A stretch of 32,684 nucleotides of DNA. Origin: Mycobacterium sp. (GTDB taxonomy: Bacteria > Actinomycetota > Actinomycetes > Mycobacteriales > Mycobacteriaceae). This document shows, in pieces, positions 18,169-24,920 of this stretch. The DNA is taken from NCBI GenBank assembly GCA_035642315.1, contig DASQSQ010000093.1, positions 1-32,684 on the forward strand. The letters run 5' to 3'. The stretch's first letter is position 1, and the number at the start of each line of letters is the position of its first letter. A program made the position numbers and the translations under genes. Under the pieces are notes generated by a model. That model did no database searches. It was given only the letters and a program-made list of their open reading frames with translations, and had not been told where the DNA came from.

Positions 18169-18771
18169 ATGAGCAATTCTGCGCAGCGGGGCGTGCCAGA
18201 ACAGCGGAACGCCACGACGCGTGCCGCCGATACCGACCGCATTCAGGTCGCCCAGTTGCTGACTGATGCCGCCGCACAGGGCCGCCTGCAGATGAGCGAC
18301 TACGAAGACCGGCTCACCAGGGTATACGCGGCGCAGACCTACGACGAGTTGGATAATCTGCGCTCCGACCTGCTGGGGTCGTCGGTGAGCCCGCAACGCG
18401 GCGGCGCCACCAAACCCGCGCCGTCGATGCTGCTGCTGGCCATTATGAGTGCGTTCGAGCGGCGCGGCCGATGGAACGTTCCGAAGAAGTTGACCACGTT
18501 CGCGTTGTGGGGTGGCGGCGTGATCGACCTCCGCTACGCCGACTTCACCTGCACCGAGGTCGAGATCCACGCGACCTCGATCATGGGCGGACAAACCATC
18601 CTGCTGCCCCCCGAAGTCAACGTTGAGATCAAGGGCCACGGCGTGATGGGTGCGTTCGATCACCAGGTTGCCGGCGAAGGCACCCCGGGCGCCCCGACCG
18701 TCAAGATCCGTGGTTTCGCACTGTGGGGCGGCGTCGGTATCAAGCGGAAAAACCGCCAGACGCAGCAGTAG
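18169..18771 (+). CDS. DUF1707 (SHOCT-like) domain protein (Rv0966c homolog)
   Basis: RAADTDR...AAAQGRL...YEDRL DUF1707 motif; C-terminal beta-rich WGGGVIDLR...MGG domain. Confidence 0.87.
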   Translation: MSNSAQRGVPEQRNATTRAADTDRIQVAQLLTDAAAQGRLQMSDYEDRLTRVYAAQTYDELDNLRSDLLGSSVSPQRGGATKPAPSMLLLAIMSAFERRGRWNVPKKLTTFALWGGGVIDLRYADFTCTEVEIHATSIMGGQTILLPPEVNVEIKGHGVMGAFDHQVAGEGTPGAPTVKIRGFALWGGVGIKRKNRQTQQ

Positions 18772-18845: not shown

Positions 18846-19175
18846 ATGGCGGACAAATTGCGGGTCGATCCCACAGCATTGTCTCAGGCCGGCAATGAGG
18901 TGGCTAACCACGGCGAGGATCTGCTGGCCCGTCAGCAGTCATGTCACGGCGAGGCCGCAGGCGCGCACTCCGGATGGGTGGGCTCCTCAGCGGGTGCGTT
19001 GTCAAGCCTGTTGGACGGCTGGGAGACGACCAGCGACGCCCATTTTCGCCGCTTCGGAAAGCATTCGACCGACATGCACTTCCTCGCTGTCGATTTCGCG
19101 GACACGGAGGACCGCAATGTCGAGGCGGTGCGCAGGGTCGGCGAGGCGCTCGGTGGTCAGAGTCCGCGCCGGTAA
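18846..19175 (+). CDS. WXG100/ESAT-6-like small helical protein (Rv0965c-like)
   Basis: 109 aa; LRVDP N-terminus, central WVG motif, C-terminal FADTED (F/YxxxD/E-like). Confidence 0.82.
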   Translation: MADKLRVDPTALSQAGNEVANHGEDLLARQQSCHGEAAGAHSGWVGSSAGALSSLLDGWETTSDAHFRRFGKHSTDMHFLAVDFADTEDRNVEAVRRVGEALGGQSPRR

Positions 19176-20866
19176 TGGCGTTGACCCTGGCCGACATTGA
19201 ACGCTGGAGCCCGGAGGCCATCAACACCGTTTTTCAGGCGGCGATCAAACGTGCGCACGGCACCCGCACCGCGTCGGCGGCGCTCGGCCAAACCATGCAA
19301 TTCCTCGATTGGGGCGGCGATAGCGCTGACGCGGCACACGCCGCGACGCATCGCACCATGCTGAACCTCGACAGCCACGCCGATGCGTGTGATGCCGTCG
19401 GCGGGGCCGCGGATAAGGCGGCCGGGGAGGTTGCTGCGATCAAGGCCCGGCTCAAGGGGATCCAGAACACCGCCCGCGCTTACCACCTGACCATCGACGA
19501 GAACACCGGGACGGTAAGCCTGCCGGAGAATCTGTCGTCGTACTCCGCGGCCGATCAGAGCGAGATCGAGGCTGCGTGGCTTCGGGTTGCCCAGGCGATT
19601 ACGCAACTGCTGGCCGACGCCCACACGGCTGACGAGGATCTGGCCGCGGCCATCCGCGGCGCCGACGGCGATTTGTCGCCGGACCAAGTCAATGCCGAAA
19701 CCTCGCACGAGCCACCGAAAATGCCGAAGGTGCCGCCGCCGGGCACGGCGCCCGCGGACGTCAACAAGTGGTGGGATTCTCTGACGCCCGCACAACAAGA
19801 CCGCGTCAAAGACTGGTTCCCGCAATCGATCCGCAACCTCGACGGCATCCCGACCAACATCAGAAATGAACTCAATCTCCCTGTGCTGCAAAGCGAGATC
19901 ACCCGGCTGCAAAGCGGCTGGCTCGACGGTAACGGCGTCTGGCATACCGACACCGCCAAACTGAACGACCTGACACATCTGCGGGACGCCCTGGCGAACA
20001 ATCCCGATACCAGCCTGATACTGCTGGACACCACTAGTAACCCGAACAAGGTGCTCGCCGCGGTCGGAGTGGGCGACGTCGACAACGCCGAACGCGTCGG
20101 CGTCACCGTTGGTGGCCTGAACACCCGCGTCAGCTCCAGCGTGGACGAGATGGTCCGGGAAGCCGAAGCCCAGCGTCGCGAGGCAACCACCTTACGTACG
20201 AAAGCGAATATGGCGGATCCCAAGGCGGTGGCGTCCATCGCCTGGCTCGGCTACGACGCGCCCGACAGTCTGGTGGGCGTCACTCACGACTATCTCGCCC
20301 ACGACGCGGCGGGGCCGCTGAACAGCTTCTACAAGGGCTTGGCCGCGACCACCAATGTTTCGGATCAGCACATCACCGCGTTCGGCCATTCCTACGGTTC
20401 GCTGGTCACCAGTTTGGCGCTGCAGCAGGGCGCGCCCGTGGGCGACGTCGTGCTCTACGGCTCCCCCGGCACCGAGCTCACCAACGTGTCGCAATTGGGA
20501 GTTCAACCGGGGCATGCGTACTACATGATCGGTGTCAACGATCACGTCTCCGACATCATCCCCGAATTCGGCGCCTTCGGCCCCGCGCCGCAAGACATGC
20601 CCGGATTTACTCAACTGTCGGTCAACACCGGCATCGGCCCCGGCGATAGCGTGCTGCATGAACGCGCCTGGGGCCACTCCGAATACGCGCGCGATGGCAG
20701 CAACAATCAGCTTCGCATGAGCGGATACAACATGGCCGCCGTGCTGTCCGGTGTGCCCGACGACAAGCACTATCTCGTCCCGCCGCCCGTGTTACCACCG
20801 CCGACGATTCCCAGCGGACCGGGACCGTTCGGGTTACCGATCCCCAACCCCGACTACCACCCGTGA
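19175..20866 (+). CDS. Alpha/beta hydrolase (DUF1023/Abhydrolase_8-like) with N-terminal WXG-like helical domain; putative type VII effector
   Basis: 563 aa from ATG 19175 (TAATG overlap). LTLADIERW, WGG, IRNLDGIP, WLGYDAP, GHSYGS nucleophile elbow, YGSPG, GHSEY, Pro-rich tail; no Sec signal peptide. Confidence 0.85.
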   Translation: MALTLADIERWSPEAINTVFQAAIKRAHGTRTASAALGQTMQFLDWGGDSADAAHAATHRTMLNLDSHADACDAVGGAADKAAGEVAAIKARLKGIQNTARAYHLTIDENTGTVSLPENLSSYSAADQSEIEAAWLRVAQAITQLLADAHTADEDLAAAIRGADGDLSPDQVNAETSHEPPKMPKVPPPGTAPADVNKWWDSLTPAQQDRVKDWFPQSIRNLDGIPTNIRNELNLPVLQSEITRLQSGWLDGNGVWHTDTAKLNDLTHLRDALANNPDTSLILLDTTSNPNKVLAAVGVGDVDNAERVGVTVGGLNTRVSSSVDEMVREAEAQRREATTLRTKANMADPKAVASIAWLGYDAPDSLVGVTHDYLAHDAAGPLNSFYKGLAATTNVSDQHITAFGHSYGSLVTSLALQQGAPVGDVVLYGSPGTELTNVSQLGVQPGHAYYMIGVNDHVSDIIPEFGAFGPAPQDMPGFTQLSVNTGIGPGDSVLHERAWGHSEYARDGSNNQLRMSGYNMAAVLSGVPDDKHYLVPPPVLPPPTIPSGPGPFGLPIPNPDYHP

Positions 20867-21543
20867 GGCCGACCGTGCGCCAACTGATCGCCGCGCTTCT
20901 CGGAGTCGCCGTCCTGCTCGCAGGGTGCATGAAACCGAACACCCTTGACCCGTACGCCAATCCGGGGCGCAAGGAATTGGACCGTCGGCAAAAGATCGTG
21001 AACGATCGGCCCGATCTGGAAACCGTCGTGCAGCAACTCGCCAACCTCAACAACGCGATCGATGCGGCGATCGCGAAATATTCACCGCAGACTCAGTTCT
21101 CGTCAAACAAGGTCGACCAGTCGACGAATGGCTGCGATGATCCGTTCAACCGCTCCATCGGTCGGCAAGAAAAGAGTGACGACTACTTTGGCAAACCTGC
21201 TCCCACCCCTGGGCAGTGGGCGCAGATCGTTACCGAGCTGGCTCCGGTGTTCAAAGCCGCGGGCTTCAAGACTGAGCGGGAATACGCTGCTGCACAAGGT
21301 GTTCCGATCCCGCCCGATGTTGAAAACGACTCCCAGCTGCGCGACGACGGGGTACGAATAGACCTCGTCGGTGGAATTAATGGTGGCCCGATGAATTACT
21401 CCTACAACACCGGTTGCCATCTGCCGGCCGCCTGGCGCACCGCACCGCCACCGCCAAACATGCGGCCCGGTAACGATCCGGACATTCACTACCCGTACCT
21501 GTATGGGTCACCGGGTGGTCGAACCGGCGAAGCTTTCGGCTGA
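20863..21543 (+). CDS. lprP: LprP/LppA-family lipoprotein (Rv0962c homolog)
   Basis: Lipobox LLAG-C, KPNTLDPYANPGR, RPDLE, NGC...TGCHLP; GTGA overlap with the hydrolase stop. Confidence 0.85.
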   Translation: MRPTVRQLIAALLGVAVLLAGCMKPNTLDPYANPGRKELDRRQKIVNDRPDLETVVQQLANLNNAIDAAIAKYSPQTQFSSNKVDQSTNGCDDPFNRSIGRQEKSDDYFGKPAPTPGQWAQIVTELAPVFKAAGFKTEREYAAAQGVPIPPDVENDSQLRDDGVRIDLVGGINGGPMNYSYNTGCHLPAAWRTAPPPPNMRPGNDPDIHYPYLYGSPGGRTGEAFG

Positions 21544-21547
21544 GCAA

Positions 21548-23533
21548 CTACCGCCGGCGGCGGGCTCGCAGATAATCGCCCACCACAGCCGCGCCCAGGC
21601 CGTCGAGATCGGGAACTACAACCCGGCCCTCGACGCGGCGGGCAACCTGATCGATGAACCGGGCCAGCCCGGGATCGCTGCCCAACCGGAAGATGGTCAC
21701 CTGCGCGCCCAGCCGCGCCATGTCGTCGAAGCCGCGCACGGTATGAGCGATGGTCCGTGGATGCGGCGGATAATCAAAAAACACCGAAGACCCATCGCCG
21801 TCAACGTCTTCCAGATGCGCCGTCGGCTCGCCATCAGTGACCACTAGCAGGACGGGCTGGGCGTTGGGGTGCCGACGTAGATGCCGGCCGGCCAGCGCCA
21901 GCGCGTGATGCAGGTTGGTGCCCTGCTCGTACACACCTTCCAGGCCCATCAGCTCCGCGCTGGTCATCGTACGCGCGTAACGACCAAAGGCGATGATCTG
22001 CAATGCATCCGAACGAAATCGGGTGCGCACCAAGTGGTCGAGCGCCAGCGCGGTGCGCTTCATCGGCAGCCAGCGATTCTCCATCACCATCGAGAACGAC
22101 GTGTCGACCAACAGCGCCACCGCGGCCTGTGTCCGCGTCTCGGTCTCGGAGACCTCGACATCGTCGACGGTGATTGTGATGGCTGCGTTCGGGCCGTCTA
22201 GCGTTGACGTTCCGGCCTGCCGCAGCACGGCATTGGTCAGCGTCCGGGTGACGTTCCACGGTTCGGTGTCGCCGAACTGCCAGGGCCGGGTGGCGCCGGT
22301 CAGCTCGCCGGCGGCGCCGGCGCGCCGGTGATCGCGTTCACCGCGACGCCCGGAAAGTTGTTGTGCCACATCATGCAAAGCCGTCTCGCCCAGCCTACGC
22401 ATCGCCTTCGGCGACAACCGCCATTGGCCGTCCGAGCTACGGTCCAGGAAGCCCTGATTGACCAGCGCCCGCTCGAGCTCGTTGAGTGTCTGCGCGTCGA
22501 TGGCGGCCTGATCGCCGAGCTGGCGCGCCAGCGCGTCGAGGTCGACATCGTCCATGGTTGCACCGGGATAACTCTGCGACAGTTGCTCGGCCAGTTGCTC
22601 GAGCTCGCCGATATCGGCCAGCGCCTGGGCGCCCTCACCCATCCCCAGCGGGTTGTCGCCGGAGAACTGCGCCGACCCCTCCCAGTCCTCGCCGGGCCGG
22701 GCCGCCTGCAGGTGGGCATCGAGTCGGTCCAGCGCCTGCATTAGGGCCGGCGACCCGAATGCTTGCTGCGCCAATGCATCCAGCTCGGCGCGCTGGTCCG
22801 GGCTCAGGCTGTTGCGGAACCGCTGCGCCGCGGCAGCGCGCTTGGCCAGCGAGTCCAGCAGCTCGTCGACATTTTGCGGGTTCTCCGGGAAGAACTCGCC
22901 GTGCTTGTCCATGAAGTCGTCGAAATCTTGCTGGGTGTCCTCGCCGCGAGCGTGCTTGTCCAACAAGTCGTTCAGATCATTGAGCATTTCGTTGACGCGC
23001 TGACGGTCCTCGTCGGTGGCACCTTCGAGCGCCTGCTTCATGCCGGCGAAGCGCTGATCGAGCATCTCACGCCCGAGCAGATCCTTGATCTGCTCGTATT
23101 TTTCCCGCGCCTCGCTGCTGCGCCAGTCGTAGTCGGAGAGCTCCTGCACCGCTTTGGCCGGCGACGGCGAGAGCGCATCCAGTTGCAGCTCACCGAATCG
23201 CGCGTCGTCGTCCAACGCGCGGGCCAGAGCCTTGCGCTCGGCCAGCACCGCCTCGTCGAGAAGCTTTTTGATCTCTTGCAGAGTCCCATCTAAGTTGTTG
23301 TTGCGCAACAGGTCTCGTCGCCGGCGATTGGCCTCGGCGGCCAGTCGATCGGCCCCGGGCATGTTCTTGGTGCCTCGACGGAGCAGCTCGGACAGCGCCC
23401 GGCGCGGCGAGGTGCCCGCCATGACGTCCTGCCCGATCTGCTCGAGGGCCTCGCGCAGGTCCACCGGCGGAGCCAGGGGGTCGGGCCCGCCGGTGTACGC
23501 CGAATACCGCGACGAGTGACCACCTTTAGCCAT
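21548..23533 (-). CDS. VWA domain-containing protein (Rv0959 homolog)
   Basis: LLVDTSFSM MIDAS motif, GTN and VVTDGEPT motifs. ATG 23533 overlaps the ATPase gene end. Confidence 0.88.
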   Translation of the reverse strand: MAKGGHSSRYSAYTGGPDPLAPPVDLREALEQIGQDVMAGTSPRRALSELLRRGTKNMPGADRLAAEANRRRRDLLRNNNLDGTLQEIKKLLDEAVLAERKALARALDDDARFGELQLDALSPSPAKAVQELSDYDWRSSEAREKYEQIKDLLGREMLDQRFAGMKQALEGATDEDRQRVNEMLNDLNDLLDKHARGEDTQQDFDDFMDKHGEFFPENPQNVDELLDSLAKRAAAAQRFRNSLSPDQRAELDALAQQAFGSPALMQALDRLDAHLQAARPGEDWEGSAQFSGDNPLGMGEGAQALADIGELEQLAEQLSQSYPGATMDDVDLDALARQLGDQAAIDAQTLNELERALVNQGFLDRSSDGQWRLSPKAMRRLGETALHDVAQQLSGRRGERDHRRAGAAGELTGATRPWQFGDTEPWNVTRTLTNAVLRQAGTSTLDGPNAAITITVDDVEVSETETRTQAAVALLVDTSFSMVMENRWLPMKRTALALDHLVRTRFRSDALQIIAFGRYARTMTSAELMGLEGVYEQGTNLHHALALAGRHLRRHPNAQPVLLVVTDGEPTAHLEDVDGDGSSVFFDYPPHPRTIAHTVRGFDDMARLGAQVTIFRLGSDPGLARFIDQVARRVEGRVVVPDLDGLGAAVVGDYLRARRRR

Positions 23534-24920
23534 AGACGGTCTCGCCTTCCCCGGACACCTTGTCGATACGCTTGGCCAAATACAGTGCCTCCAAAGCCAA
23601 TTCCAGCGCCGCGGCACGCTCGCCCTCGGATTCCGCACCGAGCCGCTTGGCAACCGCCTCGATGACCGGTAGATCCGGCAGCGCCGCCAGCACATTCTTC
23701 GCCGACACACGCTCACCCGTCGTCACCGCGGAACCGCCCTCGACCGCGGCCACCAGCGGACCGACGTCGAGGCCGCCGAGTGCTCTGGACGCGGTGTCGG
23801 CCGTGGCGCGGCGCAACAGGTGCTCGAGAACGGCTTGCTCGCGCCCTTCTTCGCCGGACTCGAACTCCAACTTGCCACGCAGCACGTCGATCACGGTGCC
23901 CAGATCGACCACCCGCGCAACCGGATCGGTCTCACCCAGCACCGCGCCGCGATGCCGCGCGGCGGCGGCAACCGTCTCGGCGGCCGCGATCGCGAACCGC
24001 GCCGAAACCCCGGAGCGCTGATCGACCGAGTTGGATTCTCGAAGGTAGCGGGCGAACCGGGCGATCACCTTGATCAAATGTTCGGGTACCTGGGCGCTCA
24101 GGTGCGCCTCTTGAAGAATCACTCCCACCTCGGCGTCGAGTTCCAGCGGGTAGTGCGTGCGGATCTCGGCGCCGAACCGGTCTTTGAGCGGGGTGATGAT
24201 GCGACCCCGGTTGGTGTAGTCCTCGGGGTTGGCGCTGGCGACCACCAACACGTCCAGCGGCAACCGCAGCGTGTAGCCGCGCACCTGAATGTCGCGCTCC
24301 TCCATCACGTTGAGCATCGACACCTGGATGCGCTCGGCCAGGTCGGGCAATTCGTTGACCGCGACGATGCCGCGATGCGCCCGCGGAATCAGGCCGTAGG
24401 CAATGGTCTCGGGGTCACCCAGACTCCGGCCCTCGGCGACCTTGATCGGGTCGATGTCGCCCACCAGGTCGGCGACGCTGGTGTCCGGGGTGGCCAGCTT
24501 CTCGGTGTAGCGCTCGCTGCGGTGCTTCCACTCGATCGGCAGGTCATCACCCAGCGTGGCGACCTTGCGGATCGCCTCCGGCGTGATCGGCGAGTAGGGA
24601 TGCTCGCCGAGTTCTGCGCCGGCGATCACCGGCGTCCACTCGTCGAGCAAGCCGACCAGTGCCCGCAGCAATCGGGTCTTGCCCTGACCGCGCTCACCGA
24701 GGAGCACGAAGTCGTGGCCCGCGATCAGCGCCCGCTCCAGCTGCGGCAGCACGGTGTCCTCGAAGCCCAGGATTCCCGGCCAGATCGCCTCACCATCTGC
24801 ACCTTCGGTGAGCCGGGCCAGCAGGTTTTCCCGGATTTCCTGTTTGACTCCCCGTTCACGGTGCCCGGCGGCACGTAGTTCGCCGACGGTGCGGGGCAAG
24901 TTGTTCGCTGCGGTCACCAC
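23526..24920 (-). CDS. Magnesium chelatase-like/MoxR-related AAA+ ATPase (Rv0958 homolog)
   Basis: Walker A GERGQGKT, variant Walker B IVAVNELPDL, ASANPEDY, LKDRF. Confidence 0.9.
   Translation of the reverse strand: MVTAANNLPRTVGELRAAGHRERGVKQEIRENLLARLTEGADGEAIWPGILGFEDTVLPQLERALIAGHDFVLLGERGQGKTRLLRALVGLLDEWTPVIAGAELGEHPYSPITPEAIRKVATLGDDLPIEWKHRSERYTEKLATPDTSVADLVGDIDPIKVAEGRSLGDPETIAYGLIPRAHRGIVAVNELPDLAERIQVSMLNVMEERDIQVRGYTLRLPLDVLVVASANPEDYTNRGRIITPLKDRFGAEIRTHYPLELDAEVGVILQEAHLSAQVPEHLIKVIARFARYLRESNSVDQRSGVSARFAIAAAETVAAAARHRGAVLGETDPVARVVDLGTVIDVLRGKLEFESGEEGREQAVLEHLLRRATADTASRALGGLDVGPLVAAVEGGSAVTTGERVSAKNVLAALPDLPVIEAVAKRLGAESEGERAAALELALEALYLAKRIDKVSGEGETVYG

What the first reader, a model, noticed from the sequence alone, without database searches (positions are those of the whole stretch)
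18846..21543. Intact WXG100 / WXG-hydrolase / lipoprotein cassette: candidate type VII lipase toxin-immunity module
Seen: three genes coupled by overlapping stops and starts (TAATG, GTGA). They encode a 109-aa WxG protein with an FxxxE C-terminal motif, a 563-aa protein with no signal peptide carrying an N-terminal helical WxG region and a C-terminal alpha/beta hydrolase (GHSYG, candidate Asp in NDHV, His in GHSEY), and a lipoprotein with an LLAGC lipobox. Known: type VII substrates are exported as helical-bundle complexes with WXG100-like partners, and envelope-acting lipase toxins (T6SS Tle/Tli, staphylococcal T7SS TslA) are neutralised by adjacent lipoprotein immunity proteins. Inference: this is an orphan ESX effector module (partner, lipolytic toxin, immunity) for intermicrobial competition or host membrane attack. 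No ESX machinery is in the window, so it would be served in trans.
Basis: partly seen in the sequence, partly recalled or inferred. Interest (0 to 1): 0.85.

Follow-up and report, generated by a model that had tools for sequence, protein, structure and literature searches.

The report
Mycobacterial secreted hydrolase-immunity cassette
Three coupled genes in a soil Mycobacterium encode a small export partner, a serine hydrolase and a surface lipoprotein predicted to plug the enzyme's active site, likely a type VII-secreted weapon-plus-antidote pair of a kind already annotated in mycobacteria, which would give the LppA lipoprotein family a testable job.

Summary
Observation confirmed: WXG100 gene (109 aa), 563-aa helical-hairpin + Abhydrolase_8 protein (Ser406/Asp456/His501 invariant in 109 relatives) and an LppA-family (LprP-like) lipoprotein, joined by overlapping stops/starts. 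It is an accessory cassette, present at this site in 4 of 30 loci checked. A lipoprotein follows the hydrolase in 120 of 136 loci (null 14 of 1129), and 26 of 30 LppA loci sit in hydrolase-headed arrays. A complex model supports binding (0.67, best control 0.00; one of three runs failed) over the active site, and that interface varies fastest in both proteins. Best reading (about 0.65): an ESX-exported, envelope-acting hydrolase toxin with a lipoprotein inhibitor. 'Lipase', toxicity and the export route are untested. The kind is known: the same three-family order is annotated as a polymorphic toxin cassette in an M. abscessus prophage, and Benedict 2026 lists alpha/beta hydrolases first among the commonest putative mycobacterial T7 toxins. 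Against: about 10 of 136 loci keep a hydrolase with no lipoprotein. Extra: close soil relatives carry an unrelated 321-aa lipoprotein at exactly this junction, though elsewhere that family stands alone. New member of a known kind; interest 0.4.

The parts
18846..19175 (+). WXG100-like (Tap-type) export partner, 109 aa; W44-x-G46, F84-xxx-E88
   Evidence: homolog upstream in 18 of 19 loci at E 1e-4 plus the more distant L047 (19 of 19 in all)
19175..19684 (+). N-terminal helical bundle of the hydrolase protein (residues 1-170), no signal peptide; shared with proteins that have other C-termini
   Evidence: helices 13-41, 49-102, 125-163; 13 of 30 loci lack the hydrolase; 3 of 11 scanned carry EspA-like TPR_23; look-alike clusters with WXG100 19% and T7SS_signal 93%
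19685..20866 (+). linker and alpha/beta hydrolase domain (Abhydrolase_8/DUF1023) with proline-rich tail; Ser406 at 20390-20392, Asp456 at 20540-20542, His501 at 20675-20677
20863..21543 (+). LppA-family lipoprotein (UniRef names for relatives: LprP), lipobox Cys22 at 20926-20928; candidate inhibitor
20870..21546 (.). swapped segment: in 9 of 19 close loci this stretch is replaced by an unrelated ~321-aa lipoprotein gene; DNA homology ends at 20869 and resumes at 21538-21548
   Evidence: (one soil run holds both forms)
18169..18771 (+). left flank: DUF1707 gene, conserved in the genus (not part of the cassette)
   Evidence: 61 of 61 genomes
21548..23716 (-). right flank: VWA-domain gene, convergent, followed by a MoxR-like ATPase gene (not part of the cassette)

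Best explanation
The three coupled genes encode a WXG100-type partner, a serine hydrolase with a helical N-terminal bundle and an LppA-family lipoprotein, and likely form a type VII-exported toxin-immunity module in which the lipoprotein is predicted to block the enzyme's active site. Shown: the genes, families, conserved Ser-Asp-His residues, patchy presence, tight two-way linkage of hydrolase and LppA, tandem extra LppA copies, fast change at the predicted interface. Predicted: hydrolase-lipoprotein binding over Ser406/His501. Inferred: partner and N-terminal bundle pair like PE/PPE and are exported by an ESX system encoded elsewhere (ESX-4 by analogy with EatA); the hydrolase then cuts ester bonds in the envelope of neighbouring mycobacteria or related actinobacteria; the Sec-exported, lipid-anchored LppA protects the producer from its own and its kin's enzyme. 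The substrate (phospholipid, mycolate ester or other) is unknown.
For: Lipobox ORF directly after the hydrolase in 120 of 136 loci vs 14 of 1129 null; 99 of 118 complete ones are Pfam LppA. Converse: of 30 LppA loci fetched (34 matches in 46 genomes), 24 have a hydrolase or its 3' remnant within 1.5 kb upstream, 2 are third copies of hydrolase-headed arrays, 4 are not preceded by one. Tandem LppA copies, some behind a remnant of the hydrolase 3' end. Complex model: score 0.67 (runs 0.73, 0.67, 0.00), best of 3 controls 0.00; runs agree in at least 4% of contacts; partner pLDDT at least 73; the mark was reached by 116 of 157 solved and 2 of 215 mismatched pairs, counts that hold only roughly with my alignments; interface includes residues 405-406, 501-508, 314-317. 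No solved relative of either chain was found by sequence. Interface columns vary more than the rest: entropy 1.43 vs 0.89 (hydrolase), 1.80 vs 1.00 (lipoprotein), also with polar residues only; interface identity 0.68-0.77 vs 0.93-0.95 elsewhere in two close kin. Accessory: 4 of 30 DUF1707 loci hold it, 7 have the VWA gene directly adjacent; an empty-site contig lies in the same soil run as the cassette. Shared N-domain with other C-termini. Same order annotated as polymorphic toxin cassette in prophage prophi68-1. ESX loci in the genome.
Against: About 10 of 136 loci have no lipoprotein gene behind the hydrolase. Four are full-length same-site orthologs with partner and intact triad (G014, G195, G237, G172); none of five such genomes matches the window's lipoprotein (no positive control) and three of four have no PF16708 match (control genome G070 had 7). 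They fall in at least two or three places on the tree, so loss of the lipoprotein is tolerated more than once; their faster protein change is slight and overlaps lipoprotein-bearing kin (dN 0.19-0.27 vs 0.11-0.24). One of three complex runs scored 0.00. The variable-interface test is confounded by surface exposure, which I could only approximate by residue type. The 321-aa replacement lipoprotein has a hydrolase upstream in only 1 of 30 loci found by its own profile. No toxicity, secretion or enzyme assay for this family was found in the papers seen. Genes are under ordinary purifying selection (dN/dS about 0.1-0.2), which a self-directed enzyme would show too.
Confidence: 0.65

Rival explanations
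1. A T7-exported esterase that remodels the cell's own envelope or scavenges lipids, with the lipoprotein as a tether or regulator rather than an antidote.
For: Intact triad and partner in lipoprotein-less orthologs; generic esterase fold; purifying selection; a binding model alone cannot tell inhibitor from tether.
Against: Housekeeping use fits poorly with absence from 26 of 30 syntenic loci, tandem and orphan LppA copies, fast change at the interface and prophage carriage.
Confidence: 0.17
2. The third position is a slot that collects exchangeable lipoprotein genes by recombination; the lipoprotein does not act on the hydrolase, which is weakly active or decaying.
For: Gene-precise replacement by an unrelated lipoprotein that is standalone elsewhere; repeated loss; split or frameshifted hydrolases in several loci.
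Against: LppA is nearly confined to hydrolase loci (26 of 30); the complex model passes with controls at 0.00; the triad is kept in 25 of 25.
Confidence: 0.1
3. An ESX effector aimed at eukaryotic membranes (amoebae in soil, host cells in pathogens), with the lipoprotein as self-protection.
For: Intact orthologs in opportunistic pathogens and M. canettii at about 72%; Dedrick 2021 reads prophage cassettes as aiding in vivo growth.
Against: The closest carriers are soil MAGs; a bacterial-envelope immunity lipoprotein with allele swapping points to bacterial targets; IS6110 copies sit in Rv0963c in 89% of Haarlem strains, the gene I recall as the M. tuberculosis counterpart.
Confidence: 0.08

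Closest known systems
Putative ESX (T7SSa) alpha/beta hydrolase toxins of Benedict et al. 2026 (PMC13444075), incl. M. tuberculosis Rv2797c and Rv2079 modelled for their Supplementary Fig. 13
   Same: Tap-like partner gene(s), 400-1000-aa helical-bundle protein, downstream lipoprotein; alpha/beta hydrolase named first among the commonest families. The Rv2797c model is a 108-aa partner plus a 562-aa chain that begins like this protein; the Rv2079 chain carries the same GHSYG and WxGYDAP motifs (compared by eye only).
   Different: Only the arabinanase EatA was tested there; no hydrolase of this family was assayed in the parts I read, and LppA is not named in the main text or the five readable supplement files. 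EatA uses two partners, this cassette one.
PEST / PT-Imm cassettes of M. abscessus prophages (Dedrick 2021 PMC8092301; Abad 2023 PMC10654092), e.g. prophi68-1 genes 8-10 (MW584157)
   Same: GenBank annotation: WXG motif protein, polymorphic toxin protein, LppA lipoprotein, with the same 1-bp and 4-bp overlaps; gene 9 is Abhydrolase_8 and 26% identical over the full length.
   Different: This copy is chromosomal between housekeeping genes, not in a prophage; the phage lipoprotein does not hit PF16708 in my scan; the two cassettes shown toxic by Abad 2023 had no recognised toxin domain.
M. tuberculosis lprP (Rv0962c) region and lppA/lppB
   Same: UniRef names the closest named lipoprotein relatives LprP; Rv0962c = LprP; flanks match the Rv0958-Rv0975c region as I recall it.
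   Different: Here the hydrolase is one intact gene; in M. tuberculosis H37Rv I recall it as three pieces (Rv0965c-Rv0963c; not tested). Positive selection and recombination at lppA/lppB were read as antigenic variation (PMC4770551), not as immunity.
S. aureus TslA-TilA (PMC10730906)
   Same: T7-secreted serine-hydrolase-type toxin, small helical partners, variable arrays of immunity lipoproteins first taken for antigens.
   Different: T7SSb, reverse domain order, two partners, DUF576 immunity family, phospholipase A activity shown; here T7SSa order, LppA family, substrate unknown.

Membership tests
WXG100 family (PF06013) | about 100 aa helical hairpin with central WxG scoring over the Pfam cut-off | tested here: met
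   30.2 bits vs 27.3; below the stricter TIGR03930 cut-off, so a Tap-like partner rather than a canonical Esx protein
Abhydrolase_8 / DUF1023 (PF06259) | profile match and nucleophile elbow with Ser-Asp-His | tested here: met
   E 1e-61; S406, D456, H501 invariant in 109; alpha/beta hydrolase fold Z 13.9, rmsd 3.6-4.2, about 200 aligned
LppA lipoprotein family (PF16708) | profile match and lipobox | tested here: met
   84 bits vs 26.4; C22 in at least 90% of 86 relatives
ESX/PEST polymorphic toxin-immunity cassette | gene order partner - bundle+enzyme - immunity, translationally coupled | tested here: met
ESX/PEST polymorphic toxin-immunity cassette | N-terminal export domain shared among different C-termini | tested here: met
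   13 of 30 N-domain loci lack the hydrolase; 3 of 11 scanned carry TPR_23; none carried a recognised toxin domain
ESX/PEST polymorphic toxin-immunity cassette | immunity protein binds the toxin domain | tested here: inconclusive
   model supports binding over the active site, 0.67 vs control 0.00, one of three runs failed; a prediction, not a measurement
ESX/PEST polymorphic toxin-immunity cassette | immunity gene always accompanies an intact toxin | tested here: inconclusive
   120 of 136 (about 126 after inspection); about 10 lack one
ESX/PEST polymorphic toxin-immunity cassette | toxicity, rescue by immunity, ESX-dependent export | not testable with these tools
   needs bench work
PEST in the strict sense (phage-encoded) | lies in a prophage next to an attachment site | tested here: not met
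   neighbours are acyl-CoA, MoxR/VWA, pur and two-component genes
Lipase toxins (TslA, Tle type) | lipase or phospholipase activity | tested here: inconclusive
   top fold matches are tied among thioesterase, dienelactone hydrolase, feruloyl esterase, lipases

The most novel reading that the evidence does not exclude
LppA lipoproteins are the active-site-plugging immunity family for mycobacterial Abhydrolase_8 effectors, and their recombination and positive selection (including lppA/lppB) reflect bacterial warfare rather than host antigenic variation; in soil mycobacteria a second, structurally unrelated 321-aa lipoprotein has been swapped gene-for-gene into the same slot at least twice, so that one nearly unchanged enzyme is neutralised by two different folds while empty, LppA and replacement alleles coexist in soil communities.
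Probability: 0.3. Interest if true: 0.65.

Novelty: new member of a known kind. Interest (0 to 1): 0.4.

Why it matters
If right, it gives the LppA lipoprotein family, so far discussed as antigens of unknown function and labelled 'confined to pathogenic Mycobacterium', a concrete job, and shows it in soil mycobacteria. It offers an intact, non-pathogen-derived cassette with which the commonest predicted class of mycobacterial T7 toxins can be tested in M. smegmatis, and an enzyme that may cut a mycobacterial envelope lipid. The class itself is already predicted and annotated, so a specialist would be pleased rather than surprised.

Tried and rejected
PDB sequence searches found no solved relative of the hydrolase, the lipoprotein or the lipoprotein profile. 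Fold search of the 321-aa replacement lipoprotein (model pLDDT 83.7) gave no clear match (best Z 6.3; no Foldseek E below 0.001); LppA was not among the listed rows, which does not prove a different fold; its profile aligns to LppA only over the signal peptide and scored 0-1% against the other clusters. ESM Atlas gave only unnamed actinobacterial clusters for it. Idea that inserts at the empty site are orphan lipoproteins: rejected, they are aldo-keto reductase-like and other unrelated genes by eye. Idea that ESX-4 is dead in this lineage: the in-frame stop in the genome's eccC4-like gene is not seen in 4 of 4 soil runs and esxU/esxT-like genes lie on contig C579, so it is private or an assembly error. 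Idea of a mosaic breakpoint inside the hydrolase tied to lipoprotein type: only 5 diagnostic columns, scattered. Relaxed selection in lipoprotein-less orthologs: weak, overlapping. The upstream WxG heuristic found 63 of 127 vs 60 of 469 null; low sensitivity, not used as a main argument. One RNA run holds relative-like contigs over parts of genes 1 and 2, but contigs cannot show transcription. A single weak contig joining 18934 to 20868 (hydrolase skipped) is not counted as evidence. Promoter/terminator scan: nothing above chance. One search was mis-specified (whole-word stem) and its zero is not used. Earlier-findings look-ups returned nothing.
Full report
Setting. The window is contig C93 of a 3.8-Mb, 630-contig, 71% complete assembly. 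Its closest named relatives are Mycobacterium soil MAGs and the runs that hold the stretch are labelled soil metagenome. The neighbours are an acyl-CoA carboxylase/dehydrogenase/hydratase operon and a DUF1707 gene on the left, VWA and MoxR-like genes and purNH on the right; I recall this as the region around Rv0958-Rv0975c of M. tuberculosis.

Observation. All three genes, overlaps and motifs are as described. Families: WXG100, Abhydrolase_8, LppA. The catalytic candidates S406, D456, H501 are invariant in 109 of 109 aligned sequences (109 of the 121 in hand). The model shows a long helical hairpin plus third helix (residues 13-163) and an alpha/beta hydrolase (259-530). Fold matches are tied among many esterase types, so the substrate is open. 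Soil contigs reproduce the DNA.

Distribution. The full protein matches 33 of 36 same-genus genomes (some hits cover only the N-domain) and its hydrolase part 156 of 250 at E 1e-15. At this particular site the cassette is patchy: 4 of 30 DUF1707 loci, the window included, hold it, and 7 have the VWA gene directly adjacent. One soil run holds both the cassette and a contig that skips 2787 bases, the whole cassette. A second, distant cassette of the same build with a different lipoprotein lies on G000:C124.

Linkage. From 155 loci with a hydrolase hit (the best hits plus 80 hand-picked lower hits, 72 matches were not listed) I dropped duplicates, truncated loci and 2 loci of other families, leaving 136. 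A lipobox ORF starts at the hydrolase stop in 120; the same filter fires after 14 of 1129 long ORFs of the genome. Of the 16 misses, about 6 have a lipoprotein or LppA that the filter missed and about 10 truly lack one. Of 118 complete lipoproteins 99 are Pfam LppA; the 120 fall into four unrelated groups of 99, 11, 9 and 1. From the other side, 24 of 30 fetched LppA loci follow a hydrolase or its 3' remnant, 2 are later copies in such arrays, 4 are not preceded by one. Tandem LppA copies occur in M. persicum, M. innocens, M. ostraviense, G070, G192 and G033. Kin are not independent, so these counts are descriptive.

Binding model. Hydrolase 178-540 with lipoprotein 23-224 scored 0.67 (0.73, 0.67, 0.00), best of three controls 0.00; runs agree in at least 4% of contacts, partner pLDDT at least 73; calibration 116 of 157 solved and 2 of 215 mismatched pairs, rough for my alignments. 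The interface covers Ser406, His501 and loops 314-350 and 485-496. These columns vary more than the rest in both proteins, and in close kin the interface is 68-77% identical against 93-95% for the rest of the domain. Surface exposure confounds this and was only approximated by residue type.

The swap. Of 19 loci, 10 carry LppA and 9, with hydrolases 81-85% identical, carry an unrelated 320-348-aa lipoprotein with no Pfam match at the same overlapping junction. DNA homology stops 3 bases after the hydrolase stop and resumes at the end of the lipoprotein gene. The window's hydrolase nests among replacement-linked ones (support 96/91) with LppA-linked outgroups, which needs at least two exchanges if the tree is right; recombination inside the gene could mislead it. 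One soil run holds both alleles. But the replacement family, found in 54 of 300 genomes counting weak hits, has a hydrolase upstream in only 1 of 30 loci, so its role as inhibitor is a guess.

Against. G014, G195, G237 and G172 keep partner, full-length hydrolase and triad at this site with no lipoprotein; G094 has a split gene. No window-like lipoprotein was found in those five genomes and no PF16708 in three of four. They are not one clade. Either the enzyme can be harmless, or these copies are silent or protected otherwise (G237 has a replacement-family gene elsewhere).

Export route. The genome has three eccB matches and two eccC matches over the cut-off. C14 has the gene order I recall for ESX-4; its eccC has an in-frame stop that four soil runs do not show, and esxU/esxT-like genes are on C579. 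The N-terminal bundle is shared with proteins of other C-termini and resembles T7 signal clusters. Export itself is inferred.

What is known. Benedict 2026 (PMC13444075; I read parts 1, 3 and 4 of 10, passages, and two parts of supplement file 1) shows EatA/EatI and lists alpha/beta hydrolases first among common putative T7 toxins with Tap partners and lipoprotein immunity; its Supplementary Fig. 13 models include Rv2797c and Rv2079. The supplementary PDF and source table were too large to read. The preprint was seen as passages only. Dedrick 2021 (passages and section 11) and Abad 2023 (passages and part 1 of section 8) describe three-gene prophage cassettes, some with lipoprotein immunity; prophi68-1 genes 8-10 are annotated WXG protein, polymorphic toxin, LppA lipoprotein. 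Garrett 2023 (TslA), Zhang 2012, Phelan 2016, the IS6110 paper, PMC10956863 and PMC13622651 (nothing relevant) were seen as passages. I found no paper testing this hydrolase family or calling LppA an immunity protein: searches (listings only; 0 papers with LppA, mycobacteri, immunity protein); subscription journals are not covered.

Verdict. A real, intact member of a predicted but, as far as I found, untested class. Mechanism as stated at about 0.65; novelty low for the arrangement, moderate for the LppA inhibitor model, the variable interface and the gene-precise swap. Interest 0.4.

Noticed in passing
G000:C124:156-2352: Second cassette of the same build: 547-aa bundle + hydrolase (27% to this one) followed by a different 189-aa lipoprotein; the contig starts just upstream, so its partner gene is not seen.
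   Followed up: partly
G000:C189:2079-2396: Lone 105-aa WXG gene (34% to gene 1) between penicillin-binding-protein-like and murE-like genes of the cell-division cluster, with no toxin gene beside it.
   Followed up: no
G000:C14:7366-7368 (L196:3013-3015): In-frame stop in the eccC4-like gene, not seen in four soil runs or in relative G019; esxU/esxT-like genes are not at this locus in G000 and G019 but lie on C579 in G000.
   Followed up: yes
L215 (G070:C1:3397500-3408500): Same site holds hydrolase, two LppA copies and a fragment, then a second hydrolase and LppA: duplication of the cassette.
   Followed up: partly
L049, L216, L064, L048: Hydrolase genes split by frameshifts at this site in several genomes, three of the four with a lipoprotein kept.
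   Followed up: no
L165:843-1406: At the same site in G087, two short tandem ORFs of like sequence and a membrane-protein ORF replace the cassette; by eye they could be cytoplasmic immunity-type genes, which would make the site a defence hotspot.
   Followed up: no
G024:C1:4624029-4631180 and G018:C5:236872-249183: Giant open frames (4292 and 5849 aa) with repeated matches to the linker/hydrolase region of this protein.
   Followed up: no
L078 / L287 (G028:C1:25245-25694): LppA-family protein anchored by an N-terminal membrane helix instead of a lipobox, behind a hydrolase.
   Followed up: partly
window 20863-21543: The lipoprotein gene has lower GC (0.60, third position 0.69) than its neighbours (0.64-0.70; 0.76-0.85), as has the replacement lipoprotein (0.61; 0.70).
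   Followed up: partly
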